Shown: piece after piece, positions 2-64,000 of the stretch
How positions within the stretch are numbered: position 1 is the stretch's first letter
Layout of the letters: every line of letters begins with the position of its first letter
NCBI GenBank assembly: GCA_048634245.1
Contig: JAIWAR010000003.1
Span: 2,401-66,400 of the forward strand
DNA: 64,000 bases
Source: Methanosarcinales archaeon
GTDB taxonomy: Bacteria; Omnitrophota; Gorgyraeia; Duberdicusellales; 4484-171
Direction of reading: 5' to 3'
Notes under the pieces: generated by a model
The model's database searches: none
What the model was told of the DNA's origin: nothing
The model's input: the letters and a program-made list of their open reading frames with translations, nothing else
Position numbers and translations under genes: made by a program

Positions 2-1100
2 GAAACAGTATTTAGGAATAGAGAAGAGCAGGAAAGAAAGTTAAGGAAGGAGATAGAAAGAGCAAAGGATAGAGGAGAAAATACACAAGGAATGGGAGCG
101 ATGAGTCCGGAAGAAGTGACTCGTTTTGTAAACTTTTTTGAGCGGTTGACAGTACATATGCTGGAGGAGATGCCTAAGAGAGCAGATCTGGTATTTGAGA
201 TGAGTGGCGGACATAGGATAAAGAATGTTTATCGTAATGAAAAATATGACGGGGGGAGTGAAAAATCGGATTTAAGTAAACATACAGGATCAGTTAAAGT
301 AACGGGGATAGTCAATGGCGTAGATATACAAAAGGTATTAGAGAAATACAATTTATCAAATATGCCTGCAGACACTGATGAAGAGATAAATGAGTTTAGG
401 GTGGCTTTAGCAGGGGCGATACGAGAAGAAGTGGGCGAAATAGATATCGGGTTGTTGATACCGTATTACCAGGAATATGGTAACGCGCCGCATGTGTTAA
501 GGACAATGATTGCCGGGTATGAGGGGTACTTTTCGGATAAACGAGCAGTGGTCATTGCGGTAGGGACAAAGGCCGCGGGTGAAGCCGGAGAACGAGCGCG
601 AGTATTATTAGAGGAAGAAGCGAATAAGCATGAGGGGAATCTTAATATTATAATTTTACACCTTGATGAAATAGAGAGAGGAAAAGGCCGCGGTTTGAGA
701 TGGGCATTTACGATTGCGCACGCCTTAAGGGCAGAGGCGATATTGCATTTAGACGCGGATTTGTATACAGAGATTAAAGGTGTATCGAGCAGAGAAAAAG
801 CAATTAATTGGAAAGAGTGCCCGGAAGAAAAATTCATGAGTTATATGGAATCACATCGTTTGCGTGGATTAAGCCCCTACTGGATAAAAGCGATGGTGGA
901 ACCGGTACTAGAGAGAGAAGTTGGATTAGTACTTCCGTACTATGTGCGGCCGATATTTGACGGAATGATTACTAAGTTTCTTATGTACATATGGGCTGTA
1001 GTATTTTATAAAGTAAATATAGAGCAGATAATCGCCGGAGATTTTTGTTTGTCAGGTAAGTTCGTGGATATGCTGTTAGAAGATGAGAAATTGTGGAAGG
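2..1100 (+). other. Domain: C-terminal part of a diverged GT-A glycosyltransferase, glucosyl-3-phosphoglycerate synthase (GT81)-like paralog (copy 0, continues upstream of window)
   Basis: Peptide ...IERGKGRGLRWAFTIAHALRAEAILHLDADLY... (nt ~680-770) matches the GpgS core PGGKGxALxxGLxxAxGDIVVFLDADL including the DxD. Downstream layout RY.R....L.Y....Q..G.F..S parallels copies at 2180 and 13690. Confidence 0.4.
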
Positions 1101-4100
1101 ATGAGAATTTCAATACGTTTGGATATGACAATGTTGTGACATCGTTGGCGATAGTGAAAGATTTTAAGATTATTCAAGCAGCGTTGGGAGAGAAATTGCA
1201 TAATGATAGTTCACGGATAAAAGAAAGAGTTATAAATGATAAGCAAATAGAAGAGCTAAAGAATGCTCGCGTTATTTTTGAAAAGAAAACAGGAGAATTT
1301 GAATTTGTGATAAACGATCAAACCGCAATAAAAGCGCGGATACGGGCGTATGTGTATGAACACCCTGAATCGAGTTTGCAGGATATAATATTATTAGATG
1401 AGATGGAGATAGATGGCAGGATTGTAAGGATAAAAGAAGACAATTTACGTCTTATGTTTAAGGAAGTATTCGCAGGAGCACATAGGTTTATGATAGAGAG
1501 GTGCGATGAGCTGGAAGCATTGATGGAAAGCGAGGTAACTAATATAGAGGTAACCGGACCGGAGTATCTACAGCGGATTTTACCGGTACAGATACAGTTA
1601 GATTATGAGAAGGTATTAGCAAAGTTTATAGAAGGGTATAATCTTTATTCGGGGATAATTAGTAATATAGTAAGTAGTAATAAAGAGACTTTTTCAGATA
1701 CGATAAAAGAATTAGTGAAAATAGCCGAAGAGGATCCCGATAATTTTGAATTTACAAATGAGTTATATGCGAAGATATTTCTTAAAGTAGCCGTGAGTAA
1801 ACAGAAAGGTATAGGTGATATAGATTTGGTGTTAGCGATGGAAGTATTATGGAGAGGAAGAGTCGCTTCATTTATAAAGAGAATAAATAAATACGCTAAG
1901 GAAAAGACGGAAGAGTATGGGCCGGAGGAAGCATATGAAATGGCGTATAAGTATTCACAGCATTTAGTAAGCGAACAATTGAGGATGGTAGAGCTGATAT
2001 TAGCACGGTATGCAGAGAGGTATAGAAACGCATTGCGAGAAAATGGGAATAACAAGGCTGCGGTGCGGGGTGATAAGCAATATGATGGTGGCAAGGCAGC
2101 TGAAGACGCAATACGCGAAGAGAAAAGACAAACGCGTTCTGTCTACAATGAGGCAATGAAAACGCCGTTCAAAAAGGCTGAAATTATAGGCAAGGTTGAT
2201 ATTGTTATTGGCATACCCTTTTTTGATGAAGTAGAGACAGTAGGTAATGTATTTAAGAAAGTAGTGGAGGACTTGAAAGAACATCACTCTGACAAGGAGT
2301 CTGCGATAATCTGCGCCGGCGGCCCTTCAGGCAAGCCTGCTCAGAAAGCTTTAAAAATTCTTGAAGGTATTACCCTGCCTTCCAATATAAAAAGGATAGC
2401 CTTTATTCTGCCTATTAGAGGTAAGGGCATAGGAGGAATGAGGCCGGTTATGGAACTAGCTGATATGTTGGGCGCTGAGGCCTGCACTTTCATTGACGCT
2501 GATGAGCGCAAGGTAACTAAAGAATGGGTTTCTCTTATGGTTAACCCCATATTAAATCAGGGATATGACTTTATTTCTTCCCGTTATGCTCGTTATAAAC
2601 ACTCCGCCACAATTACCAATCATCTAGCCTATCTTTTGATTGGAGCAATTTATGGACTAATAGTACGCCAGCCTATTGGCGGAGAATTTGCCCTTTCAAG
2701 AAGATTGATAAAATTATATCTTAAAAATCCTGAAGTCTGGTTTACCAATGTAGGTACTTACGGGGTAGATAATTGGCTTACTACAACAGCTATTGTTAAT
2801 AAGGTGAAAATGGGCGAGGTTGATTTAGGCATTAAAGCGCATAGTTTTAGTGCTTTTCCTAAACGGGGGGGGATGTTTATCCAGGTAACCAGTGAAATAT
2901 TTAGCCAGGTAAAGAAAAATGCGCCTTTCTGGAAAAAAGTAGAAAAGGTTAAGCCTATTGATACTGTTGGCCCGTTGAAGGGGGAAACACCTGAATCTGT
3001 ACCTCAGAAGTACAGGGAGTGGCTTGGCAAGTTTAAGGATAATTTCGAGAAAAATCTTCCTACATACAAAGAGATATTGCCGAGAGATATAGTTAATGAA
3101 TTAAAAATTCTGGTTTATACTGAAAATGAAAACTTTGAACTTAAAGCTTCAGTTTGGGCAAAGATTGTTTATACTTTTCTTCTTCATTATAGTTTTAGTG
3201 AGGAGCCTATAGGAGAAAAATTCTGGGACGCGCTGGTTGCCATATGGCAGGCGCGGGTAGGTTCTTTTATCAGAGAGACCGAAAAAATGAGCCATGAGGA
3301 AGCAGGAGAAGTTATCTATAAACAACTTGAAGAGTTTATCAGCGCAAGAGAGGGATTTGTTAATGAATGGAGAGAGAAAGAAGCAGGTTTTGACGGCGGG
3401 ACAAAAAGTAACGACATAGCGAAACGTCTTTGTAAAATATTCGCAAGTGAGAGTAAGTGGTATAAGTATATTGAAAAAAGTAAAAACAAAAAAGGCATCA
3501 CTGATGATAGGGAAGTAGTTTTGGGAGTAATACCGAAAGGACATTTTGAAGAAACAGACGAATATGACGATATTATTGCTTTGCATGGCGGAACCGGCGG
3601 CGCGTCCTTTGGAAAGTCGGTAGGGTTTTCGGAAGTAGCTAAATTTCTCAGCCAGAAACTTTCAACTGGTTTAGCTATTTCGCCTCACGATACCGGAGGA
3701 GCTTCCCGCAAACTTCAGGATAGAGTAGCCGGAGTTTTAGGCTATATACCTTCACCGGGAGATACGATGAATATTCTTTCCGGATTCAGCTCTTTTTACA
3801 AAAAGCTTATTTTGGGGACAAGGTTTAAAGATGATATTCAGCCTCATGAACTTTTTGTTGATAAAATAACCGAATTGCTTCAGAAGGTAGTTAATATGTC
3901 CGAGGATAAAGTTTTAGTTAAGAGTAATAAATTAACATGTGATTATCTGGAGTTTTACGAAAACAACTATATTATTCACTACAATAAGAATACTCGTATT
4001 TTAACTTTTACGAATACAAAACATAAACCTAACGAAACCAAGAAAGATATAGTAAAGGTAAATTTAAGTACAATAGAGGAATCCAAAGAAATAGAATTCG

Positions 4101-58100: not shown

Positions 58101-61100
58101 CGATAAGCTTTTATGAAAGCAGAGGTGTTCCGGTAGATTCTTTAAGGAGATATTTACGCAATAAGAATAAAGAATTAAATTCCCCTTTTGAACAAGAACA
58201 GTTTTATCGCGACCAGTATTCATCACAAATGGTAGCGAGCCTTATGCTATCAGGTATATTTATGGACGAATATGAAAAACATAAGATTCATCCGGTTAGG
58301 ACTATGACTGATTACTTCTCTGAGCTGGACCAAATATTCGGCCCGCCGAATGAAACAGATAAGATATGGATAGAAAAAGAACTTATACCGGAGTTGGAAG
58401 CTTTAGCCCAGCAATTATTTGGGAAAAGAGTTACTCTGGAGGGGTCAAAGGTAACGGACAGAATAGGTTTATGGTGGGCTGAGGCAGACCGTTGGAGCGG
58501 AACTATTTATTATTGGCCGTTTACGATATATCCTAAAATGAAGGATGATCTAAACAGGGATTCTCATCGGAAGAATGCCAGAGAGCGGGGAATCGGCAAC
58601 CTTTTATTGGCTTTATACAGGTTTATGTATACTAAAGATGAAGATATAGAGAAAGCGCATATTGAATGTTTCGGGAGAAAAGAATTTAGTATTCTTTGGG
58701 ATACTTTATTAATTTCTAGAGCGGTATTTACCGGATTACCGGCAACTCAAAGAAAGGTTAAAGCAGATAAAACCCTTGGTGAATATGTGGAAACTCCTTC
58801 AATGATAGGAGATGTATTTAAGGAGAAATATAATTTAGGTAATAAAAAAGTGGAAAAAGAATTGTTTAAGTCCTACCCTCTACACCTGCAATTTTTAGAT
58901 TCAATACTTTATAGATGGAGCCAGTATGATTCAGAAACAAAGATTCTTGATGATCCAAGGGCTGAGGCCGGCAGTTTGATGGATAAGGCTGTAAGAGATA
59001 CATTTGAGAGCTGGGTTAAAGTAATGTTCCAAGTTGATAAACATTCAAATTATGAAGATCTTTATAAGATTCTTACAGAAGAAATTTGGCCGGTATATAA
59101 AGAGTTGTTTGATAAAGATGTGGAAATAGAGAAGAACAGGAAATTAGTCCAAAAAATGGAGGATGAAGAAAAAATAAACCCCGGAGATTTTGATTTGAAT
59201 AATTTAGATAAAGAGCAAGAGAAATTTTTAGAAGATTTGTTTAATTCATTACCGGAAGAGATTAAACAACAGATTTTACAGCAGATAGAAGATGAATTAA
59301 ATAGTTCTTCTTTAGATTCTCAAGGCAGCCATGGCGAACAGGGAAGCCAATCCGGGGGAGCTAAGCCTCAATCCGGGCAATTCGGAAGCCAAGGGAAGCC
59401 GGCTAGCGTTGAGGAACTGGCTGAAACTATGGATGATCTAGAAAATACTGTAAAATCAATGGAAAATCTTTTAGGGAAAATATCTGATACTGCTGATGAA
59501 ATAGGTGATGGTGCTTGTAATATAGGTAATCAAGTCCAGTCTACAGGAGAAAATGAAGATGATAAGAATATAGATGAGATTACAGGTAAAACCGATGATT
59601 TGAGCAATAAAGGTAAAGAGTTAGGACAAAAAGGTGAACAATTAGCTGAAGGAACAGAAGGGGTAAAGAATAGTTCTTTTGAGTTAGATGAAAACCTGCC
59701 TATATCGGGTATGGGTTATGATATGCAGGAAAAAGCTTCGGAGTTAAATGCGGATACTAAGGGGATAAAGGAGAGGATTGAAGAATTACAGGAAAAGCTT
59801 AATGAACTCAAAAAATTAAGCCAAAGGTTGAATAAATTTAGGGATGAAGGAGCAGACCATACTCAGATAAATCAAATTGGTGAGGCTATAAAAAATCAGG
59901 CAGAAAGTATAAAAGAAACCACTTCAGACATTAAAGAGGGAAGTTCGGATACGGGTGGTTCTCTTGATGAATTAAATAAAGAAATAAAAAAACTGTCCCA
60001 GCAAGTGAAGGATTTGGAAGATTTTGGTAAGGATGTTACACCTCCGCAATCTTCTTTACCAGGAAAAGATCAGCCGAAAAGTGAAGAAAGTACAGATAAA
60101 GGAGATCAAAATATGGGAGATAATTCGGCTGCCGAATCCGGAACAGGTAATGATCAACGCAGCAGTGACAGTTCTGGTAGTGAAGGTTCATCTCAAACTT
60201 CTGAAGTTGAACAAAGCCCTGATGAACCCGAATCCGGAAAAAGTTCCGACTCGAAATCTTTAACTCTCCCTTCAGATGGAGATTATACGGGTTTGGAAGA
60301 AATAATTAAAAAAGGTGAGAAAGTTTCAGCTCCCCAAGAAGATAAGTATCAAGATAGAGAATTTGAAACGGTTGTTGATGATGAATGGCTGAAAGCATTA
60401 GAAATGGAAGAGTTATTAGCTGAATGTGAAAGAACAGGACTAAATGAGGAAGAGTTAAAGGAATATAAAGGATGGCTGGATTTATTGGGAGAAGATTTAA
60501 TAGATTCGATGATTGAAATAGCTAAGGGGTTAGTATTACCGGCAGAAGATGTAGAAAAATTTTATGCTCCTTATACCGGAATCTTAAAGAAACCGATTAA
60601 AGGAGTTTTGGGAGGTAAACCTTTTATAAAGAGAAAAGAAACTAAACCCACGCCGGTTAAAATTACTTTGCTTATAGATAGAAGCGGAAGTATGAGCGGC
60701 GATAGAATACTTTATGCTAAGTTAACGATGATGTTATTGCTATTAGTATCGTTTGCTGTAAATGAAGAACTTGAGAAAATGCGGTGGCCGTTAATAGAGT
60801 TTGAAATAGGCTGTTATAATGCTGATTCTGATTTGTTTATAAGTCATGAGACGAGTATCGAACTCGGTGAAGATAGAAAAGAAAGGCTTATTTATGATGC
60901 AATAAAGAAATTAGAAGCTACAGGCTGGACAGATGATAAAAAGTCTTTGGGTGAATTTGTTACCCGTTTGAAAGAAAGCCCGGAAGTCGCGGGAGCGGAA
61001 GAAGAAACAAAGAGAATTTTATTTTCAATAGGTGACGGGAATGTGAACACTCAAGAGAAGGAAGGTATAAGAGGAGTATTGGCCTATAGTTTGGAAAATC

Positions 61101-64000
61101 ATATAGAGGTTTTCGGTATAAGTGTGGGTGATAAAGAAGCAATGCAGACTGTTCTTAATGCTTTTGGAGAAGAAAGAGCCGTTCTTCCTGAGAATCCGGA
61201 TTTAAGTGATTTGCCGGAACGTGTATTAAAGAAGTTTGCTGAAATTTTAGCTCCGCCGAATCATGAAATATCCTGGGATCAGATACTTTCTGACGGCGGG
61301 GAGGTGGAAGAAACTGGAGAACTCAGAGAAACCGGGTACCGACACTTTTTCTATCAGGAAATAGGGGGGAAAGACTATTTGGTATGGCAGAAAGAAGACG
61401 AGAGTGGGCATATGCACAAACTAATGTGGCAGAGAGGCCAGGGTGGTCCGAATGTGCCGGATGTAATAACCATAGATGACGATGAAAACGAACAATTGAT
61501 ATTAGATATATTACAGGCATTATATATCGAAGGGGTGGATTACACATCATATTCAAAAGACGGCAGATACTATTTAAGGAAGTTTGGTAAGAACAGAGTG
61601 GTATTGATGGAAAGAGAAGATTCCAAAGATTGGGTAATAAGGAAAGAATTCAGGATACAGAAAGAACCGGCTAAGAGCAAAGAAGAAGACGGGTACAAAA
61701 TATTTAAGAACAAGAATATAGAGTGGCGTATAAATAAAGAGAAGAAATTAGATTTAAGAGTCGGAGAAAACAAATGGGTTCAGGTAATAGGAAATAACGG
61801 AGGATTTAGTGAATATTTAGAAGTAGAATACGATGCTAAAGAAAAAGGGTATATGATATTTGATTCAATAAGCAAAAGAATAGTAATAGCAAGAAGTAAA
61901 GAAAGGGCAGATGAATTGCATATTATATGTGATATAAAAGTAGAGAAACTTAAAAGTTCGGAAGAGTGGGAAGGAAAGATAATTAGGCTGATAGGGTATA
62001 CCGGGTTAGGAAAAGATGAAATATTGAGAGCGGCCGGGCACCTCATGAATGAAGAAGAATTTTTTGTGGCTGGCAATTATGATATGGAACCGGAAGACTT
62101 TTTTGAGTATCAGACTTTAGGAATAGAGGAAGGGTTAACAACAGGACATTTATATACAGTAGTAAATAAGATATTTCATAACGGAGGCTGGGGAGTCATA
62201 GATGAAATATCCAAGATAAAACCTAAAGTATTGAGTGTTTTAAAGACATCGATAGCGGCCAAAACACATCAGAGATGGGTAAAGGATGATAAAGAAAAAG
62301 GAGGAGAGAAATTAGATACAATGGCAAACCATTCAAGAGCGCGGTTAATCGGGACATTGAACCAATTGATTGCCGGAATAACGGGAGCGGGATATTCAGA
62401 CCAGGCAACACAGGACAGATTAAAAGATATACCTTTTGTATGGAGGAAACCGAGTTCAGAAAAGAAGCTGCAATTTGAGTTAGCCATGAGGAAACTGAAA
62501 GAAATCAGGCCGGAATTAGAAGACGAAGAATTAGATTCCGAAAAAGAAAGGATTAGAGCAATAGTAGATGTATTGGTAGATGTAGCTTGGCCGATGAGAT
62601 TAGCGTTTGCCGGATATGATGCGGAGCAGGTAGCAAAGTTCACAGAAGATGACTTTAAGAATTGGGATAAATTATTAAAAGACGCGACATTCGCGCCTAA
62701 GACAAAAGCCGGAAAGAATTTAAAGAGAGCGCCGAGTCCCAGGGTGATAGGGAATATTGTACAGCAGGCGATAATGTTCCCTAAGCTTTGGGAAAACGAA
62801 CCCTGGACAATAGTAGAAATGTGGTTCAACCTTTACGCGGATGACCTAAAACCCCAGGAAAAGAAAAGACAATCACAGGCAATAAAAACTCAGTTTGAGA
62901 ACCCGGCTCAAAGAGGAGGAGATAACGGTATAAAGAATAAGGATGATCTCCCAGCAATAGAGTTAACCTTAGAATCATTTAAAGTAGAAGGAGAGTATCT
63001 GATAGTTACCCCTAAGAAAGTAGAAGCCAACGGAGAATATGTAGAGTATTGGGACCAGATAAAAGTATGGATACACCCGGATTCCAGGGAATACATAGAA
63101 CAATACGGATTACCGGAAGAAGTACACTACTGGTTAGGAACTCAGAGCATATATAACAGCAGGCAGATGTATTTAGCCTTACAAGTTAGAGCCTTAGGAA
63201 AGAGCCTTATATTTGTAGGTAAACAAGGGACAGGAAAAAGTGTATTAGCTGAAACTATAGGTATACTGTTAGACGGAGAAGAAGTTCCTCAAATAGAAAT
63301 CAAGAAAGATACAGATAAAGAAGAATTGACATTTAAGCCATATTTAAGAGGAGCGATATCAGGGTTTGATTACGGGCCTTACGCTGTAGGGGTGAGAGAT
63401 CATAAGACAGTGATATCAGAAGAAACTACCCAAGGCCAGCCGGGAGTAATCGGAGTAAGTAACGAAGCTATAGAAAGACAGTTTATGGTGCATCCTGACG
63501 GGACAAAAATAGGGAAAGAAGGAGACGGAAGATTCGGGGTAATTCATGCAATAAACCCGCCCGGTAACACCAGGTTTTCAGTAAAAGCATTTAGCGACGA
63601 ATATATAGAACGGCACGCGGTATTATGGTTTGAGACATCGAGCCCGGAAGAGATGTACAATTACCTGTTACCGGTGTCAGAAAGGAAAGGAATAAGAGTT
63701 AATCCGCGGATAATCGGAGAAAAGTTAAGAGATGCCGACGGAGAAATAGCATTAGTAAACGGGCAGGAGAAATGGATAGGATTAGTAGGTATGGTCCAGG
63801 ATTTATTGATAAAAGAAGAGACCAATCCTTTAGATAAAAAGTTACCGTTACGAATACCTGGATACAGAGCATTAAAGAGCTTAATAAAAGATATGCGCAG
63901 TTACTGGGAAGTAAACGCGGCATTTAGTAAAGATCATAGGCAGGAACTGTTATTAGATAAATTTTTAGATAACTTTGTAATGGAAGGCAGCCCGGAAGAA
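2..64000 (+). CDS. Single giant ORF, partial at both ends (at least 21,333 codons in window); multi-domain mega-protein
   Basis: Manual translation in phase 2 (codons at 2,5,8...) gives continuous protein-like sequence with no TAA/TAG/TGA across the window. The ORF track lists no plus-strand ORF in phase 2 (an M-to-stop ORF would have to appear if any stop existed) and lists none in phase 1; all six listed plus ORFs start at coordinates divisible by 3. Canonical enzyme motifs occur in this frame throughout (see domain features). Confidence 0.9.
2090..3380 (+). repeat. Dispersed internal duplication, copy A (~1.3 kb; partner at 13620-14900), covering the GT81-like domain and ~160 aa downstream
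   Basis: Near-colinear protein identity, EEKRQTRSVYNEAMKTPFKKAEIIGKVDIV... versus NKEKRQIRSTYNEAMKAPFKKAEIIGRADIV..., through ...EEFISAREGFVNEWREKE versus ...EEFIEARRDFVDKWREKE. Antisense artefact ORFs 2341..2550 and 13858..14067 are near-identical (MGLTIRETHSLVTLRSSASMKVQ...). Confidence 0.8.
2180..2900 (+). other. Domain: GT-A fold glycosyltransferase, glucosyl-/mannosyl-3-phosphoglycerate synthase (GT81)-like, copy 1
   Basis: Motifs IVIGIPFFDEVETV (cf. GpgS LPALNEEETI), RGKGIGGMRPVMELADMLGAEACTFIDADE (GKG...DAD motif), IGGEFALSRRLI (cf. LGGEYAATRELL), DLGIKAHSF (cf. NLGVRAH). Confidence 0.6.
3500..5700 (+). other. Module A of a tandem duplicated ~2.2 kb unit containing a YvcK/CofD-family (UPF0052, gluconeogenesis-factor/2-phospho-L-lactate-transferase-like) fold with large insertions
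   Basis: N-terminal DIIALHGGTGGASFG ... AISPHDTGGASRKL (nt ~3570-3720) and C-terminal LIMGPGSFYTSLLSILLIPEIVEAL (nt ~5110-5190), the hallmark GPGSxYTSxxPNLLxP-type motif of YvcK/CofD. Confidence 0.5.
6960..9140 (+). other. Module B of the tandem duplicated YvcK/CofD-like unit
   Basis: DIVALYGGTGGRFFG ... AISPHDDGGASRKLQ (nt ~7020-7170) and LSMGPGSIYTSLLPILLIPEIIEAL (nt ~8550-8630). Colinear with module A over ~700 aa (e.g. LGYIPSPGDTMNILSG identical in both; TFEEGTLYVRLKDMTIIK versus TFEPGTLYVKLSDMTIIK). Confidence 0.55.
9460..9900 (+). other. Domain: NUDIX-hydrolase-like
   Basis: GIWHATAQVLVIDQSGRMLIQVR followed by SGHLKPNESYEKQALRVIDETL, approximating the Nudix box Gx5Ex7REUxEExGU (variant). 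Confidence 0.35.
11260..11720 (+). other. Domain: HAD-IIB (Cof/sucrose-phosphatase-type) phosphatase-like, probably degenerate
   Basis: C-terminal block GGSTSIDFARKDINKSIAAEDLIRGARLEKERDLLLAIGDEFIFTGVDFAFLK resembles the HAD-IIB SIDI..GVSKGxALxxL....eeviAfGDsxNDxxML block, but the ND dyad is replaced by TG. Candidate motif I is PFIDLRTNIG (second Asp replaced by Arg). Confidence 0.3.
12040..13560 (+). other. Domain: alpha-D-phosphohexomutase (phosphoglucomutase/phosphomannomutase family)
   Basis: FGTSGWRGVIG (N-terminal), active-site TASHNP (nt ~12340), metal-binding loop DGDADR (nt ~12850), sugar-binding GEESAH region. Order and spacing typical of PGM/PMM. Confidence 0.8.
13620..14900 (+). 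repeat. Dispersed internal duplication, copy B (partner of 2090-3380)
   Basis: See copy A. The nucleotide strings are visibly near-identical, e.g. ggcataggaggaatgaggccggttatggaa occurs in both copies. Confidence 0.8.
13690..14420 (+). other. Domain: GT81 glucosyl-3-phosphoglycerate-synthase-like GT-A domain, copy 2
   Basis: IVVGIPFFDEVKTV, RGKGIGGMRPVMELADMLGAEACTFIDADE, IGGEFAFSKRLM, DLGVKAHSF. Confidence 0.6.
15790..17600 (+). other. Domain: multipass-membrane glycosyltransferase region, cyclic beta-1,2-glucan synthase (NdvB/ChvB/Cgs, GT84)-like
   Basis: Hydrophobic helices (LGAIFSIAILETAAVLFYLALL, IALVSLAFFFVF; later FLLIFGWF, LFVSLLAVF, ICVWLMNIALYIF, LPILIFWSI). GT-A core YVITLDEDIEVP (DxD-like) and the processive-GT motif KRKERWTRGDWQ (QxxRW-like) at nt ~16900. 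Confidence 0.5.
17650..22450 (+). other. Domain block: NdvB-like C-terminal region with two GH94-type N-terminal beta-sandwich repeats and a GH94 (cellobiose/chitobiose-phosphorylase-like) (alpha/alpha)6 catalytic barrel
   Basis: Twofold internal similarity: KYFYIKDEDSQKVWSLGFDP...LEIWQITLQNEGKGERNLSVTSYLEW (nt ~19100-19380) versus KILYIRDLDTNEIFSPTYNP...LEIWILKLKNLGKERKRLAVTNYFEL (nt ~20470-20740). GH94 hallmarks TPRPWAHILANPEYGTLVTNSGAGYSWFMNAQQNRITPF and GAGDWNDGFSNVG ... VRENGGQYTHAATW ... GWTWYTGAAAW (nt ~21670-22370). Confidence 0.6.
22655..23530 (+). repeat. In-frame tandem repeat array: ~8 PBS-lyase-type HEAT repeats, period 111/114 nt (37/38 aa)
   Basis: Repeated SKLTDSNGNVQQAVVRALASVYPELIQQEKMSLSALE / SKLTDSNWGVRQAAVKALASIYPKLIQQGKTPDLSALE units. 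The nucleotide repeats are directly visible (e.g. ccagcaagctgctgttaaggc..., tatccgccttagaaag... recurring). Confidence 0.8.
25980..27230 (+). other. Region of multiple predicted transmembrane helices inside the giant protein
   Basis: Hydrophobic stretches FLICFAVEIFQMGLPFLFYFLSCVFIPGL, IGYILLLPFWLSIISAF, GILLGVIDVSSGIFAFSAIGIALATMLL, PLFIALAVILI, ITLGIFAGIVLFVSTFKILGIFGCIGGGLILGGLI, IAGVTGMLLIGIGSIFGLWSL, LYMIVSFLTGVFITLIV. Confidence 0.5.
27340..27700 (+). other. Domain: minimal nucleotidyltransferase (Pol-beta superfamily NTase)
   Basis: NILGIVVYGSVAEGTAVLASDLDFLVI (nt ~27425-27505) fits hG[GS]x9-13Dh[DE]h. Confidence 0.5.
28000..29500 (+). other. Domain: glucose-6-phosphate isomerase (PGI)-like
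   Basis: WVHIGVGGSKLPTE (PGI signature 1-like, GIGGSxLG) at nt ~28260; PEGMGGRFSGFSAVALLLLAVAA (PGI signature 2, G-G-R-[FY]-S) at nt ~28820-28890; downstream conserved GLHINTVVGSPYNHTGLEG region. Confidence 0.65.
29600..30900 (+). other. Domain: glyceraldehyde-3-phosphate dehydrogenase (GAPDH/E4PDH family)-like, catalytic Cys and His present
   Basis: LSCTSNAMLGIIWAL (cf. ASCTTNCLAPLAKV) at nt ~30307; TIHAAT (cf. TVHAIT); STGAAKNLFKILPELEGRFLIKAYRVGT (cf. [28 protein letters not shown]); YDNQSAAPGQ (cf. YDNEFGYS); upstream IDIAVEYGPGKEAGGKF...RVVCASP resembles the NAD-domain segment IDVVVESTGVF...KVIISAP. Confidence 0.65.
32560..33300 (+). other. Domain: radical-SAM-like (CxxxCxxC cluster motif)
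   Basis: LQITKGCSHGCKGCYYKAG at nt ~32650-32690 (C-x3-C-x2-C preceded by a Gly-rich loop). Confidence 0.4.
33600..34000 (+). other. Domain: class I SAM-dependent methyltransferase
   Basis: Motif I ILSLGCGRKG (nt ~33725), motif II HVVAMDFIGSRI, motif III-like FDVVYSH. Confidence 0.55.
34030..34230 (+). other. Two predicted transmembrane helices
   Basis: LSLLGTFLLIVFIGFGLPFTLYLLYV and FLIGILVAIPYLFGIIPYI. Confidence 0.4.
36090..36650 (+). other. ARM/HEAT-like helical repeats (~4 units)
   Basis: Recurrent GxxQxxAIxxLxKLIT units: GISQLQAITFLVKLITF, YRLQAITALDEFFS, GEFQFEAIAVLGKLITV, GEFQAEAIIILFEFISS, each followed by a (N/D)(L/D)DDLLF-type segment. Confidence 0.35.
36850..38395 (+). other. 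Domain: 2,3-bisphosphoglycerate-independent phosphoglycerate mutase (iPGM/GpmI), full length
   Basis: PLVLVILDGWG, GNSEVGHLNIGAG (phospho-Ser site), HIMGLISDAVIHSS, AITDGRDS, FFNFRADRARQ, AETQKFAHVTFFFNGR, IANADMVGHTG, IADHGNAE, all in canonical iPGM order over ~510 aa. Confidence 0.85.
38480..38800 (+). other. Domain: GNAT-acetyltransferase-like (weak)
   Basis: YFDIFPQRQGLGRVLWKHI resembles GNAT motif A (Q/RxxGxG/A); flanking beta-rich segments. Confidence 0.25.
42270..42420 (+). repeat. Low-complexity Gly/Ser/Ala-rich linker
   Basis: GIASSGAASEGSTGSGAAGSNADSSSGSADGGTLDSGGIGSG. Confidence 0.6.
44580..44800 (+). repeat. Highly charged Lys/Glu/Arg-rich segment (predicted single alpha-helix or coiled coil)
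   Basis: EKQRAEEERKKLEEKKQKALKEKRQLRKQKALKTRKSFRRQRRLEEEAKIKKAQEEKEKRVAAAEE. Confidence 0.6.
46080..47150 (+). other. Domain: GH15 (glucoamylase/glucodextranase-type) (alpha/alpha)6 barrel-like
   Basis: GRHWPRDSGIAV (cf. the WxRDSA motif), TPWARPQNDGPALRAMALIDY (cf. glucoamylase GRPQRDGPALRATA), CYDLWEDLTGYHFWT (cf. DLWEEV...FFT), GNPWFVATAWFAQYY. Confidence 0.65.
48505..49370 (+). repeat. Dispersed internal duplication, copy A (partner at 54985-55430), interrupted by a ~460 nt insertion (48560-49015)
   Basis: LELKRTKFLETEETN ... GYESYFMENDGAQHLNEFFNFLIIFLLGSTNITTKKIKSFLEMPLAAGNN...HKNIDFIDDFMDWLAMRITSPP versus LELKRTKFLGTEETDAGYESYFMKNDGSQHLNGLFDSLIIFLLGSTNITTKELKNFPEMPLAAGNN...HKNIDFISALMKWLAMRIMSPP. 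Antisense artefact ORFs 49030..49269 and 55051..55359 (and 49324..49554 / 55378..55605) share sequence. Confidence 0.7.
49880..50680 (+). other. Domain: possible guanidino-group-modifying enzyme (amidinotransferase/agmatine-deiminase superfamily)-like fold (weak)
   Basis: C-terminal GDISMHGGSYRCSS resembles the GGGxxHC catalytic-Cys motif of agmatine/arginine deiminases. Internally repeated GFKVIRIP... / GFKVVRIGG... modules suit a pentein propeller. Confidence 0.25.
53400..53780 (+). other. TPR-like helical repeats
   Basis: LKVLSDLYWKGGDLGMSACCKERVGDLLKAAGDREEAFKWYRWAVLTYRKTKNFEAANNCNKKASKL with W/Y-LG-Y-A-F spacing typical of TPR. Confidence 0.35.
53890..54750 (+). other. Domain: HAD-superfamily hydrolase-like
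   Basis: Motif I IIMDIDKTVT (DxDxT) at nt ~53895-53925, motif II-like LLISGSP, motif IV IIGIGDSTLDDF (GDxxxD) at nt ~54690. Confidence 0.45.
54985..55430 (+). repeat. Dispersed internal duplication, copy B (partner of 48505-49370)
   Basis: See copy A. Confidence 0.7.
57780..57850 (+). other. HExxH motif (possible zinc-metallopeptidase-like site)
   Basis: ATLIHELVHHLAELD. A second His-rich helix GLITHGMIHLVLG lies at nt ~56940. Confidence 0.25.
59280..60280 (+). repeat. Low-complexity acidic, Ser/Gly/Glu/Asp-rich disordered region with an embedded helical heptad-like segment
   Basis: SSLDSQGSHGEQGSQSGGAKPQSGQFGSQGKP...; ...ELQEKLNELKKLSQRLNKF...; ...SEESTDKGDQNMGDNSAAESGTGNDQRSSDSSGSEGSSQTSEVEQSPDEPESGKSSDSKS. 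Confidence 0.5.
60650..61200 (+). other. Domain: von Willebrand factor type A (vWA) with MIDAS motif
   Basis: VKITLLIDRSGSMSGDRI (DxSxS MIDAS) at nt ~60664-60710; downstream Rossmann-like alternation and GDGNVN (T/D-containing loops). Confidence 0.6.
61900..62450 (+). other. Domain: AAA+ ATPase, MoxR/dynein-midasin (AAA_5)-type, with degenerate Walker A
   Basis: IIRLIGYTGLGKDEIL (GxxGxGKD, S/T replaced by D) at nt ~61981; Walker B HNGGWGVIDEISK at nt ~62184; sensor-like ARLIGTLN. Confidence 0.45.
63150..63700 (+). other. Domain: AAA+ ATPase, MoxR/midasin (AAA_5)-type, canonical Walker A
   Basis: SLIFVGKQGTGKSVLAETIG (nt ~63205-63260); downstream GVIHAINPPGNTRFSVKAFSDEYIERHAVLWFE, the characteristic ATxNP/arginine-finger region of AAA_5. 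Confidence 0.6.

What the first reader, a model, noticed from the sequence alone, without database searches (positions are those of the whole stretch)
2..64000. Entire 64 kb window is one stop-free reading frame: a giant gene encoding a protein of more than 21,000 aa
Phase-2 translation of the plus strand has no stop codon across the window and reads as bona fide protein throughout, with recognisable enzyme motifs from nt ~700 to ~63,500. The ORF track corroborates this: no plus-strand phase-2 ORF is listed, so no in-window stop exists. In AT-rich DNA, where stops arise every few dozen codons by chance, a 21,333-codon open frame can only be maintained by selection. Both ends are truncated, so the real gene is larger. 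Giant genes of this scale are known from a handful of lineages, notably Omnitrophota and related CPR-adjacent phyla, where products of 30,000-85,000 aa are reported. This one combines complete metabolic enzyme domains, membrane segments and midasin-like ATPase/vWA modules, an unusual mix.
Basis: seen in the sequence. Interest (0 to 1): 0.95.

Follow-up and report, generated by a model that had tools for sequence, protein, structure and literature searches.

The report
Giant Omnitrophota gene punctuated by Asp-Gly-Gly
The whole 64-kb window is an internal piece of one giant bacterial gene of a kind already known from Omnitrophota, but it is built from about 34 protein-sized modules separated by a strictly kept Asp-Gly-Gly signal, which suggests it is made as a polyprotein and cut into ordinary enzymes.

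Summary
Observation confirmed. Plus-strand frame 2 (nt 2-64000) has no stop in 21,333 codons; the other five frames have 656-2343 stops. Its closest relatives are open-ended ORF fragments from Candidatus Omnitrophota MAGs. Its content (sugar-metabolism enzymes, radical SAM, methyltransferases, HEAT/TPR, membrane units, AAA_5) matches the published 'Archaeovorin' and 'multi-enzyme metabolic cluster' giant genes, so the gene is a new member of a known kind.

The tripeptide DGG occurs 44 times against 6.2 expected. It is spelled with 23 codon combinations and never falls inside a Pfam domain. It divides the ORF into 34 units of at least 100 aa (median 462 aa), and units that could be compared match free-standing proteins end to end. 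EGG is absent (9.1 expected). Six other Omnitrophota-type long-ORF sequences show the same punctuation (pooled: DGG 124 vs 10.8; EGG 2 vs 16.9). DGG is kept even where linkers, neighbouring units and unit order differ.

My best reading is a polyprotein cut at DGG by a Gly-Gly-type endopeptidase. That step is inferred (about 0.55). No protease was found in the window, and cleavage itself is untested. I found no report of this motif in the literature I could search.

The parts
2..64000 (+). Single stop-free reading frame of 21,333 codons, open at both window ends; an internal part of a giant gene
   Evidence: 0 stops; 656-2343 in the other frames; homogeneous codon usage, GC 0.32-0.44 per unit
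248..61300 (+). 44 Asp-Gly-Gly tripeptides. D-codon starts at nt 248, 2084, 3392, 6797, 6842, 7142 (inside a CofD-like core), 9227, 11975, 13610, 14906, 20255, 22493, 22595, 22610, 25076, 26543, 27278, 27887, 29702, 30908, 30923, 33590, 33968, 35099, 36797, 38399, 38876, 40079, 41060, 42353, 42452, 42635, 45887, 46013, 48710, 48965, 49427, 50696, 51791, 53792, 54971, 55475, 56438, 61292
   Evidence: 44 observed, 6.2 expected, P 6e-23; 23 codon spellings; block shuffles give at most 17; EGG 0 vs 9.1; 0 of 44 inside Pfam envelopes, P 1e-4
2..256 (+). Unit aa 1-85: C-terminal tail of a P-loop nucleoside/nucleotide-kinase-family unit, ending in DGG
   Evidence: 40-47% to the C-termini of free-standing genes in L001-L003; the L001 homologue is 360 aa, PRK09270-type kinase, next to a mannosyl-3-phosphoglycerate phosphatase gene
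257..2092 (+). Unit aa 86-697: distant GT2-like paralogue of the next unit (26%)
   Evidence: no Pfam or NCBIfam hit
2093..3400 (+). Unit aa 698-1133: GT2 / glucosyl-3-phosphoglycerate-synthase-like glycosyltransferase
   Evidence: 92-96% coverage of free-standing proteins of about 415 aa; best hits are Omnitrophica fragments at 47-48%
3401..6805 (+). Unit aa 1134-2268: CofD/YvcK-like domain with a large insertion, plus a C-terminal extension
   Evidence: CofD, E 4.5e-15; 57% to unit 2284-3078
6851..9235 (+). Unit aa 2284-3078: CofD/YvcK-like paralogue; holds the only DGG inside a conserved core (aa 2381)
9236..11983 (+). Unit aa 3079-3994: unit containing a HAD (Hydrolase_3) phosphatase-type domain
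   Evidence: E 8.8e-6
11984..13618 (+). Unit aa 3995-4539: complete phosphoglucomutase/phosphomannomutase (domains I-IV)
   Evidence: (spans residues 39-543 of a 546-aa PGM chain)
13619..14914 (+). Unit aa 4540-4971: second copy of the GT2 unit (83% identical to aa 698-1133)
14915..20263 (+). Unit aa 4972-6754: membrane-anchored N-terminal and middle part of a cyclic beta-1,2-glucan-synthase-like protein (TM helices, DUF3131, glycoamylase-like domain, GH94 supersandwich)
   Evidence: (PDB 8rf9 Cgs, E 0, 3 stretches)
20264..22501 (+). Unit aa 6755-7500: GH94 phosphorylase (supersandwich plus catalytic domain)
   Evidence: E 1e-114; aa 6758-7507 span residues 4-781 of an 820-aa cellobiose phosphorylase and Cgs residues 2032-2767
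22619..25084 (+). Unit aa 7540-8361: HEAT-repeat unit; contains a 111-nt tandem array at nt 22655-23539
   Evidence: HEAT_2, E 1e-32
25085..26551 (+). Unit aa 8362-8850: HEAT-like N-terminus followed by about 2 TM helices
26552..27286 (+). Unit aa 8851-9095: polytopic membrane unit with a sub-threshold signal-peptidase-II (Peptidase_A8) match
   Evidence: 6-7 hydrophobic segments; E 3e-4, 21.3 bits, cut-off 25
27287..27895 (+). Unit aa 9096-9298: nucleotidyltransferase (Pol-beta-type) unit
27896..29710 (+). Unit aa 9299-9903: divergent glucose-6-phosphate isomerase
   Evidence: E 3.8e-18, far below the equivalog cut-off
29711..30916 (+). Unit aa 9904-10305: GAPDH-like unit (only the catalytic domain is recognisable)
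   Evidence: (87% to the L004 unit, which follows DGG in the same register)
30932..33598 (+). Unit aa 10311-11199: radical SAM unit; HExxH at aa 10432
33599..33976 (+). Unit aa 11200-11325: short SAM-methyltransferase unit (126 aa)
   Evidence: Methyltransf_25, model positions 1-71 of 97
33977..35107 (+). Unit aa 11326-11702: unit with two TM helices, conserved in L004
35108..36805 (+). Unit aa 11703-12268: orphan unit
   Evidence: no family
36806..38407 (+). Unit aa 12269-12802: complete cofactor-independent phosphoglycerate mutase (iPGM)
   Evidence: aa 12285-12798 align to residues 4-511 of the 511-aa chain 1ejj, E 1e-150
38408..40087 (+). Units aa 12803-12961 and 12962-13362: two orphan units
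   Evidence: no family
40088..41068 (+). Unit aa 13363-13689: NADPH-dependent F420-reductase-like unit
   Evidence: npdG, E 7.5e-15
41069..42643 (+). Unit aa 13690-14120 (two TM helices, an orphan domain and a Gly/Ser/Ala tail), followed by two short DGG-bounded spacers (33 and 61 aa)
   Evidence: the C39-like idea was not supported
42644..45895 (+). Unit aa 14215-15298: 1084-aa orphan unit
46022..48718 (+). Unit aa 15341-16239: GH15 glucoamylase-family unit with a C-terminal extension
   Evidence: E 3e-60
48974..49435 (+). Unit aa 16325-16478: 154-aa unit, paralogue of aa 18327-18494 (56%)
49436..50704 (+). Unit aa 16479-16901: agmatine-deiminase/PAD-like unit (weak); shared with other DGG-class giants and with free-standing proteins of 400-450 aa
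50705..51799 (+). Unit aa 16902-17266: divergent class I SAM-methyltransferase-fold unit; the last 25 residues before DGG are unstructured in the model
51800..56446 (+). Units aa 17267-17933 (weak TPR), 17934-18326, 18327-18494 and 18495-18815: mostly orphan units
56447..61300 (+). Unit aa 18816-20433: HExxH at aa 19269, a coiled coil, one TM segment and a sub-threshold VWA
61301..64000 (+). Unit aa 20434-21333 and beyond: AAA_5 (MoxR/dynein-type) ATPase modules; runs off the window
   Evidence: E 9e-20, 2 stretches

Best explanation
The window is an internal 64-kb piece of one giant gene from an Omnitrophota bacterium, of the 'multi-enzyme metabolic cluster' / Archaeovorin-like type. What is shown: the ORF is a string of at least 34 protein-sized modules (median 462 aa) plus 8 short spacers. 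The modules that could be compared correspond end to end to proteins that are free-standing elsewhere. The modules are separated by an invariant Asp-Gly-Gly tripeptide set in linkers that are otherwise variable. The motif is constrained at the protein level and is conserved in related giant genes even where module order differs. The near-cognate tripeptide Glu-Gly-Gly is purged from the ORF. What is inferred: the ORF is translated as a polyprotein precursor and cut at or next to DGG (by analogy, after Gly-Gly) by a Gly-Gly-type endopeptidase encoded elsewhere in the gene or genome. Cutting would release cytoplasmic sugar-phosphate and glucan-metabolism enzymes (PGM, G6P isomerase, GAPDH-like, iPGM, GH94, GH15, GT2, HAD and others) and separate membrane proteins as ordinary-sized products in fixed stoichiometry.
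For: Giant ORF.

Omnitrophota origin and class: closest relatives are Omnitrophica/Omnitrophota MAG fragments at 47-70% identity; published classes with the same domain set.

DGG as a delimiter:
- 44 observed vs 6.2 expected, by far the most enriched tripeptide.
- 23 codon spellings, and the GAC bias is largely a general Asp-before-Gly context effect.
- 0 of 44 DGG lie inside Pfam envelopes, against 12 of 76 other GG dipeptides.

Units equal whole proteins:
- iPGM aligns to residues 4-511 of a 511-aa chain, with DGG two residues after its end.
- PGM spans 39-543 of 546 and GH94 spans 4-781 of 820.
- The GT2 unit covers 92-96% of free-standing proteins of about 415 aa.
- In the HMMER search each unit hit on its own, with match ends at the DGG positions.

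Conservation across genes:
- L004/P0097 has DGG at all three boundaries although linker lengths, the downstream neighbour and unit order differ.
- P0230 29 vs 1.2, L006 ORF1 14 vs 0.4, P0275 18 vs 1.2, P0234 10 vs 1.2, P0224 6 vs 0.3.
- Homologous units are bracketed at equivalent positions in 5 of 6 cases.
- DGG also brackets the HAD and racemase domains in L006.

Signs of a recognition site rather than a hinge:
- EGG 0 vs 9.1 in the window (0 of 1000 shuffles) and 2 vs 16.9 pooled, P 7e-6.
- Before D, Phe and Lys are enriched and Glu and Ile are depleted; after GG, Lys is enriched.
- Tandem sites lie 5-61 aa apart.
- The linker before one DGG is unstructured in a confident model.

Literature: C39 double-glycine peptidase domains recur in Omnitrophota giant proteins, and cleavage has been proposed with the cleavage points stated to be unknown.
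Against: There is no direct evidence of cleavage.

No protease that could do it was found in the window:
- There is only a sub-threshold signal-peptidase-II-like unit and two bare HExxH motifs.
- The C39-like reading of unit 13690-14120 failed every test.
- No JAMM motif is present.
- No C39 domain was seen in the five DGG-class relatives examined.

The canonical double-glycine leader features are absent. Only D-G-G and weak preferences at -1 and +1 are conserved.

DGG is dispensable at some boundaries. P0001 and P0002 lack it at the GT2 boundary, and P0234 lacks it around its PAD-like unit.

The DGG at aa 6752 splits a cyclic-glucan-synthase-like enzyme that works as one chain in other bacteria.

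If the cut is directly after GG, about 40% of the new N-termini would be Lys, Arg, Leu or Trp. These are destabilising under the E. coli N-degron rule (my own knowledge).

The 2026 preprint reads such proteins as uncleaved chains anchored in the inner membrane.
Confidence: 0.55

Rival explanations
1. The product is an uncleaved giant scaffold. The whole chain stays intact as a membrane-anchored multi-enzyme assembly, and DGG is a hinge or a docking/recognition motif (for a chaperone, insertase or partner protein) between modules, not a cleavage site.
For: Hydrophobic segments come mostly in pairs or larger clusters within units, which could keep the soluble modules on one side of the membrane. 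The 2026 preprint favours a reading of a TM-anchored chain with the domains on the cytoplasmic face. HEAT and TPR scaffolding units are present. No protease was identified. Some boundaries in relatives lack DGG. A Cgs-like enzyme is split by a DGG.
Against: A passive hinge does not need an invariant D-G-G. No EGG, NGG, DGS or DGA substitutes are enriched. A hinge also gives no reason to purge EGG from the rest of 21,333 aa, or to have tandem DGGs 5 aa apart. Obligate oligomers such as GAPDH and G6P isomerase would be hard to assemble inside one chain (inference from general enzymology).
Confidence: 0.3
2. DGG is a footprint of how modules are acquired or shuffled (a recombination or insertion scar), with no function of its own in the protein.
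For: Unit order differs between the window and L004, with DGG at the breakpoints. Intragenic duplications of whole units exist. GH94 is free-standing next to a DGG-class gene in L007 but is a unit here.
Against: The nine nucleotides are not conserved: there are 23 spellings. A DNA-level scar would therefore have decayed unless the amino acids were under selection. EGG avoidance and the preferences at -1 and +1 are protein-level signals.
Confidence: 0.06
3. DGG codons act at the RNA or translation level, for example as internal Shine-Dalgarno-like GGNGG sites for re-initiation or as ribosome pause or skip sites, so that the units are made as separate chains without a protease.
For: GGAGG occurs in 10 of the 44 sites, and GC-rich codons (GAC, GGC) are over-used at DGG.
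Against: Start codons are not enriched after DGG (median distance to the next Met is 44 aa, against 37 at random). Most spellings are GGC-GG or GGG-GG rather than GGAGG. The GAC bias also holds for Asp before any Gly (44%, against 20% elsewhere). There is no conserved upstream nascent-peptide context like that of 2A-type skipping signals.
Confidence: 0.04
4. The ORF is an artefact: a chimeric assembly, or an artificial in-frame joining of separate genes.
For: The source contig could not be found in the genome or metagenome collections. Read-level support cannot be checked.
Against: Zero stops in 21,333 codons. Uniform composition and codon usage. Independent public contigs show the same architecture and the same delimiter. 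Giant ORFs of this type have been closed with long reads in the literature.
Confidence: 0.02

Closest known systems
Omnitrophota giant genes of the 'Archaeovorin' type (West-Roberts et al. 2023, bioRxiv 10.1101/2023.11.21.568195)
   Same: A huge single ORF in Omnitrophota. It carries HEAT repeats, glycosyltransferases, TPR, methyltransferases and glycoside hydrolases, plus glycolytic-enzyme domains including PGM/PMM and glucose-phosphate isomerase, and many TM helices. Those authors already proposed post-translational cleavage.
   Different: The hallmarks at the gene termini (N-terminal C39 or S8 peptidase, SecA-DEAD domain) and NUDIX were not seen in this internal window. The paper states that the cleavage points are unknown. 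The DGG delimiter found here is not mentioned there or in any other paper I could search.
'Multi-enzyme metabolic cluster' class of very long Omnitrophota (Gorgyraeia) proteins (Nielsen & Lui 2026, bioRxiv 10.64898/2026.06.07.730766)
   Same: Many distinct Pfam families tile the chain and none dominates. [quoted passage not shown]
   Different: That paper interprets the proteins as intact TM-anchored chains, and its text contains neither 'motif' nor any form of 'cleav-'.
Viral polyproteins and polyubiquitin-type precursors cut after Gly-Gly (African swine fever virus pp220/pp62, adenovirus, coronavirus PLpro LXGG; ubiquitin fusions) - from my own knowledge
   Same: Several finished proteins are encoded head to tail in one ORF and separated by a short Gly-Gly-containing signal. 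Cognate-like sites are avoided elsewhere.
   Different: Here the host is a cellular organism, the cargo is metabolic enzymes and membrane proteins, the scale is more than 21,000 aa, no embedded protease has been identified, and cleavage has not been demonstrated.
Double-glycine leader peptides processed by C39 peptidase domains of bacteriocin exporters - from my own knowledge, plus for C39 domains in Omnitrophota giants
   Same: Gly-Gly immediately before the presumed scissile bond. C39 domains recur in Omnitrophota giant proteins. In two relatives a DGG lies shortly upstream of an annotated start, like a leader.
   Different: The conserved amphipathic leader with hydrophobic residues at -4, -7 and -12 is absent, and Asp at -3 is not a known C39 determinant. 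No C39 domain was found in the window or in the five relatives examined.
Uncleaved multi-enzyme fusions (eukaryotic AROM and CAD, fatty-acid synthase; cyclic beta-1,2-glucan synthase Cgs/NdvB)
   Same: Consecutive pathway enzymes sit in one polypeptide. Units 4972-7500 match Cgs itself.
   Different: Those fusions have no invariant delimiter and comprise 2-8 activities, not 34 or more unrelated modules.

Membership tests
Omnitrophota giant gene (West-Roberts 2023; Seymour 2023) | A single ORF longer than 20 kb (Seymour) or longer than 90 kb (West-Roberts) | tested here: met
   At least 63,999 nt are open and the ORF is truncated at both ends. This passes the 20-kb criterion. The 90-kb criterion cannot be judged from a 64-kb window.
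Omnitrophota giant gene (West-Roberts 2023; Seymour 2023) | Encoded in an Omnitrophota genome | tested here: met
   Indirect. The best hits of the GT2 unit (47-48%), the iPGM unit (70%) and the DGG-class relatives are all Candidatus Omnitrophica/Omnitrophota MAG proteins. No marker gene is available and the source contig was not found.
Archaeovorin type | [quoted passage not shown] | tested here: inconclusive
   GT2 x3, methyltransferase units, GH94, GH15 and radical SAM are present. The only peptidase is a sub-threshold Peptidase_A8. NUDIX was not found in the window. The rest of the gene is unseen.
Archaeovorin type | HEAT and TPR repeats and glycolytic-enzyme domains | tested here: met
   HEAT_2 at E 1e-32 and weak TPR. 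PGM/PMM, G6P isomerase, GAPDH-like and iPGM.
Archaeovorin type | N-terminal C39 or S8 peptidase near a signal peptide; SecA DEAD/preprotein-binding domains; C-terminal TM anchors | not testable with these tools
   The window lacks both gene termini. None of these domains occurs inside it.
Multi-enzyme metabolic cluster class (Nielsen & Lui 2026) | At least 10,000 aa, with many distinct Pfam families tiling the chain and none dominating by copy number | tested here: met
   21,333 aa with more than 20 distinct families, each in 1-3 copies.
Polyprotein (viral sense) | Proteolytic release of the individual units | not testable with these tools
   Only sequence signatures are available: the delimiter, EGG avoidance and unit completeness.
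Polyprotein (viral sense) | A processing protease encoded in or with the precursor | tested here: not met
   None was identified in the window. It may lie outside the window.
C39 double-glycine substrate | Gly-Gly at P2-P1 | tested here: met
   44 DGG sites.
C39 double-glycine substrate | A conserved leader with hydrophobic residues at -4, -7 and -12 upstream of GG | tested here: not met
   No positional conservation beyond D-G-G and weak preferences at -1 and +1.
Midasin / MoxR AAA+ with VWA | AAA_5 ATPase modules | tested here: met
   AAA_5 at E 9e-20 with two stretches.
Midasin / MoxR AAA+ with VWA | Six tandem AAA modules and a MIDAS-containing VWA domain | tested here: inconclusive
   Only two AAA stretches are seen before the window ends. 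VWA scores 18.1 bits against a cut-off of 23.8 and lies upstream of the ATPase unit rather than after it. PDB gives no midasin match.

The most novel reading that the evidence does not exclude
A clade of Omnitrophota expresses dozens of ordinary cytoplasmic enzymes and membrane proteins, including core sugar-phosphate metabolism, as cellular polyproteins of tens of thousands of residues. These are cut at a three-residue code (Asp-Gly-Gly) that is kept at module boundaries and purged elsewhere. In effect, operons would be replaced by virus-style polyprotein expression in a free-living or episymbiotic bacterium. Other lineages may use other delimiter codes.
Probability: 0.5. Interest if true: 0.85.

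Novelty: new member of a known kind. Interest (0 to 1): 0.66.

Why it matters
Giant Omnitrophota genes are known, but it remains an open question whether their products work as single megadalton chains or are processed. The 2023 study says explicitly that the lack of known cleavage points blocked both structure prediction and interpretation.

A strictly conserved delimiter at module boundaries that is avoided elsewhere gives concrete candidate cleavage points. This has three practical consequences:
- Existing proteomes can be re-searched for termini at DGG.
- Giant ORFs can be split in silico into foldable, annotatable units.
- The puzzling prediction of 'extracellular' glycolytic enzymes could be explained.

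If cleavage is confirmed, this would be a polyprotein strategy for cellular metabolism on a scale not known in any cellular organism.

Tried and rejected
1. Finding the source contig. A protein-pattern scan of GTDB representative genomes, a profile scan of JGI metagenomes and an exact 61-mer scan of the same collection all failed. The gene's true ends therefore could not be reached.

2. A C39-like peptidase in unit aa 13690-14120, suggested by a Cys...His...16 residues...Asp spacing recalled from memory. There was no Pfam hit even at E 10, no homologues, a single-sequence AlphaFold model with pLDDT 42, and no PDB sequence hit at E 10. I dropped the idea.

4. JAMM/MPN+ motif scan of the window and relatives: nothing found.

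5. DGG as an RNA-level or Shine-Dalgarno-like signal, or as a marker of internal starts: not supported.

6. The GAC/GGC codon bias at DGG as a separate signal: mostly a general Asp-before-Gly context effect.

7. The 'midasin-like' annotation: only AAA_5 holds.

8. Embedded RNAs, tRNAs or introns in the ORF: none found.

9. Reading the original V. archaeovorus paper (Kizina et al. 2022): it is not held in the library.
Full report
**Observation.** The plus strand read from nt 2 contains no stop codon in 21,333 codons. The other two plus frames contain 2343 and 2093 stops, and the three minus frames contain 1245, 656 and 1396. No other frame is open for more than 774 nt. GC is 37%, the coding strand is purine-rich, and GC skew is positive throughout. 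The frame is open at both window edges.

**Is it real protein?** Yes. Pfam, NCBIfam and PDB comparisons find unrelated, well-known families all along the frame:
- three GT2-type glycosyltransferase units;
- two CofD/YvcK-like units;
- a HAD domain;
- a complete four-domain phosphoglucomutase;
- a cyclic beta-1,2-glucan-synthase-like region followed by a GH94 phosphorylase;
- HEAT repeats;
- a nucleotidyltransferase;
- a divergent glucose-6-phosphate isomerase;
- a GAPDH-like unit;
- radical SAM;
- SAM methyltransferases;
- a complete cofactor-independent phosphoglycerate mutase (E 1e-150 to PDB 1ejj);
- an F420-reductase-like unit;
- GH15;
- weak TPR;
- AAA_5 ATPase modules.

Most units score far below NCBIfam equivalog cut-offs, so they are divergent members and their exact substrates are uncertain. 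Codon usage and GC are homogeneous across units. No tRNA, Rfam family or other feature interrupts the ORF. The only tandem DNA repeat is a 37-aa HEAT repeat array.

**Where it comes from.** The source contig is not in the GTDB representative genomes or in the JGI metagenome collection. The closest relatives of independent units are all from Candidatus Omnitrophica/Omnitrophota MAGs:
- the GT2 unit at 47-48% (P0001 and P0002);
- the iPGM unit at 70% (P0097, from GCA_023143035.1);
- long multi-unit proteins MCX5702574.1 and MCX5708745.1.

The P0097 contig is open in frame over all of its 949 codons, so it is itself a fragment of a giant ORF. Giant ORFs are a documented trait of this phylum: more than 20 kb in most Velamenicoccia genomes, up to 85,804 aa and 147,155 aa. 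The published 'Archaeovorin' description lists HEAT, GTs, TPR, methyltransferases, GHs, and PGM/PMM and GPI domains. The 2026 'multi-enzyme metabolic cluster' class lists sugar metabolism, radical SAM, signal peptidase II, F420 oxidoreductase and HEAT/Adaptin-N scaffolding. Both fit the window. The 'unusual mix' is in fact the hallmark of the class. 'Midasin-like/vWA' is only partly borne out: AAA_5 is solid and VWA is sub-threshold.

The tripeptide Asp-Gly-Gly occurs 44 times against 6.2 expected (P about 6e-23). It is by far the most over-represented tripeptide, and shuffles that preserve block composition never exceed 17.
- It is spelled with 23 different codon combinations, so the constraint is on the amino acids.
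- The excess of GAC is largely a general Asp-before-Gly context effect (44% against 20%).
- Start codons are not enriched downstream.
- No other residue within 20 positions on either side is conserved in the window, and the flanks are only mildly polar.
- None of the 44 DGGs falls inside a Pfam envelope (18.6% of the ORF; P 1e-4). Other GG dipeptides fall inside at the chance rate, 12 of 76 against 14.2 expected.
- Forty-three sites cut the ORF into 34 units of at least 100 aa (median 462 aa) and 8 short spacers of 5-85 aa.
- The 44th DGG (aa 2381) lies in the conserved core of a CofD-like unit.

**Units are whole proteins.**
- The iPGM unit aligns to residues 4-511 of the 511-aa crystallised enzyme. 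DGG lies 17 residues before and 2 residues after the aligned block.
- The PGM unit spans residues 39-543 of a 546-aa chain, and the GH94 unit spans residues 4-781 of an 820-aa cellobiose phosphorylase.
- The GT2 unit covers 92-96% of many free-standing proteins of about 415 aa.
- In an exhaustive HMMER search with a four-unit stretch, every hit matched a single unit, with match ends at the DGG positions. Hits included free-standing proteins of 330-450 aa as well as long fragments.
- One DGG (aa 6752) lies at a domain boundary inside what is a single 2,799-aa cyclic glucan synthase in other bacteria. The delimiter therefore marks module boundaries, and not only former gene boundaries.

**The delimiter is conserved in related giant genes.**
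- In L004/P0097, DGG stands at all three boundaries. This holds although linker lengths differ, the unit after iPGM is a different one, and the unit order (iPGM, GAPDH-like, TM unit) differs from that of the window.
- DGG is the top tripeptide in P0230 (29 vs 1.2), P0275 (18 vs 1.2), P0234 (10 vs 1.2) and P0224 (6 vs 0.3), and it is equally over-represented in the abutting ORF upstream of P0230 (14 vs 0.4).
- Homologous units are bracketed by DGG at equivalent positions in 5 of 6 comparisons.
- DGG brackets the HAD and racemase domains of L006.
- Pooled over seven ORFs there are 124 DGG against 10.8 expected.
- Other long Omnitrophota-type proteins (P0221, P0236, P0239) lack the motif, and some boundaries in relatives lack it. 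It therefore defines a subclass.

**Signs of a recognition site.**
- Glu-Gly-Gly is absent from the window (0 against 9.1 expected; no shuffle out of 1000 fell below 2) and nearly absent from the pooled set (2 against 16.9, P 7e-6).
- NGG, DGA and DGS occur at expected rates.
- In 122 pooled sites, the residue before Asp is enriched for Phe and Lys and depleted of Glu and Ile. The residue after Gly-Gly is enriched for Lys.
- Tandem sites 5-61 aa apart occur repeatedly.
- In two relatives a DGG lies shortly upstream of an annotated start codon, like a leader.

A passive hinge explains none of this. A site read by a protein does.

**Mechanism.** What is shown is a modular giant ORF with a selected tripeptide delimiter that is avoided elsewhere.

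What is inferred is that the delimiter is a proteolytic processing site and that the ORF is a polyprotein. The analogy is with precursors cut after Gly-Gly: viral polyproteins, polyubiquitin and double-glycine leaders (my own knowledge). The inference draws on three points from the literature. C39 double-glycine peptidase domains sit near the N-termini of full-length Omnitrophota giant genes. They form one of the largest architecture clusters among long Omnitrophota proteins. The authors of the 2023 preprint already suspected cleavage but had no cleavage points.

Processing would also resolve their puzzle of glycolytic enzymes being predicted as extracellular. It would allow oligomeric enzymes to assemble.

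I put about 0.97 on the delimiter being real and selected, and about 0.55 on proteolytic cleavage.

**Arguments against cleavage.**
- There is no direct evidence of cleavage.
- No suitable protease is present in the window. The candidates are a sub-threshold signal-peptidase-II-like unit and two bare HExxH motifs. A C39-like idea failed all tests, and there is no JAMM motif.
- No C39 domain is present in the relatives I could examine.
- The canonical double-glycine leader is absent.
- Some boundaries lack DGG.
- Many would-be N-termini are Lys, Arg or Leu.

**Rivals.**
- An uncleaved scaffold with DGG as a hinge or docking motif (0.30).
- A recombination scar (0.06). The lack of nucleotide conservation argues against it.
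- An RNA or translation-level signal (0.04). The codon variety and the lack of start codons argue against it.
- An assembly artefact (0.02). Independent contigs with the same architecture argue against it.

**Novelty.** The gene is a new member of a known kind. I found no mention of a DGG delimiter, of any inter-module motif, or of the word polyprotein in connection with Omnitrophota. This covers the three Omnitrophota papers I read and full-text searches of the library. The original V. archaeovorus paper could not be read, so prior description cannot be excluded.

The value of the finding is that it turns an open question, whether these giant proteins are processed and where, into one that can be tested with existing proteomes and simple constructs.

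Noticed in passing
window 22655-23539: Tandem array of 7.7 copies of a 111-nt (37-aa) HEAT repeat at 81-86% identity, inside the HEAT unit. It looks like a recent repeat expansion.
   Followed up: no
window 2093-3400 vs 13619-14914; 3401-6805 vs 6851-9235; 48974-49435 vs 54980-55483: Whole units are duplicated within the gene: GT2 at 83%, CofD-like at 57%, and a 154-aa unit at 56%. Duplication therefore works module by module.
   Followed up: partly
window 7142-7150 (aa 2381-2383): This is the only DGG inside a conserved domain core ('SPHDDGGASRK' in a CofD-like unit). The paralogous unit reads 'SPHDTGGASRK' at the same place. As I recall, DDGG is the family's own conserved motif, so one copy may have mutated away from the delimiter.
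   Followed up: no
window 3401-9235: In both CofD/YvcK-like units the N-terminal GGTGG and D(D/T)GG motifs lie about 450 residues before the Pfam-matched part (model positions 133-260). The domain therefore seems to be split by a large insertion.
   Followed up: no
window 33599-33976: The methyltransferase unit is only 126 aa long. Its Pfam match stops at model position 71 of 97, just before the next DGG, so it may be truncated or degenerate.
   Followed up: no
window 29711-30916 vs L004 1759-2520: The GAPDH-like unit is 87% identical to its L004 counterpart over 233 aa, but it carries about 150 extra residues before the shared C-terminal 'MLGPWA.WLGN' tail. Only the catalytic half resembles GAPDH by sequence.
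   Followed up: partly
window 36806-38407: After the Omnitrophica fragment (70%), the next-best iPGM relatives (52-55%) are from Methanococcoides/Methanosarcinaceae archaea and Firmicutes. Methanosarcinales are the reported prey of V. archaeovorus, so gene transfer is conceivable but untested.
   Followed up: no
P0232, P0238, P0257, P0236, P0221: Long Omnitrophota-type proteins without DGG show other recurrent inter-module elements: 'SSSP/ASSPL' (P0232, P0238, P0257), 'AAPAAP' (P0236), and a repeated 'GLSGWWLAAGIG' membrane anchor (P0221). These may be alternative delimiters in other lineages.
   Followed up: partly
L006 9929-10101: Two giant ORFs (at least 3367 aa and 7888 aa, both DGG-punctuated) abut in different frames with about 170 nt of overlap. 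This looks like a frameshift within a single gene of more than 11,000 aa, either an assembly error or programmed.
   Followed up: no
L005 132-260; L006 33612-33884: DGG occurs in the open frame shortly upstream of annotated start codons ('...GKADGG|EAIAKE' before P0275; '...KELDGG|DRKYTNW' before the 251-aa gene after P0230). This hints at short DGG-terminated leaders or mis-called starts.
   Followed up: no
L005 17794-25938: In the same Omnitrophota MAG, the neighbouring genes fuse FBP aldolase, PFK and a GAPDH domain (1828 aa), and PPDK (more than 1361 aa). They have N-terminal hydrophobic segments but almost no DGG, so this is a second style of multi-enzyme fusion beside the DGG class.
   Followed up: no
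L007 5049-7550: A free-standing 833-aa GH94 phosphorylase gene lies just downstream of the 3' end of a DGG-class giant gene, whereas in the window GH94 is an internal unit. The same enzyme can sit inside or outside the giant ORF.
   Followed up: no
P0230 C-terminus (L006 ~32900-33592); P0234 aa ~4864; P0275: DGG-class relatives embed various protease-type units: an Rce1-like CPBP intramembrane protease as the last unit of P0230, an archaemetzincin (Peptidase_M54) in P0234, and a weak transglutaminase-core hit in P0275. No protease family is common to all of them.
   Followed up: partly
window 41069-42643: Unit 13690-14120 ends in a Gly/Ser/Ala low-complexity tail, followed by three DGGs within about 100 aa. 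This is the densest cluster of delimiters in the window.
   Followed up: no
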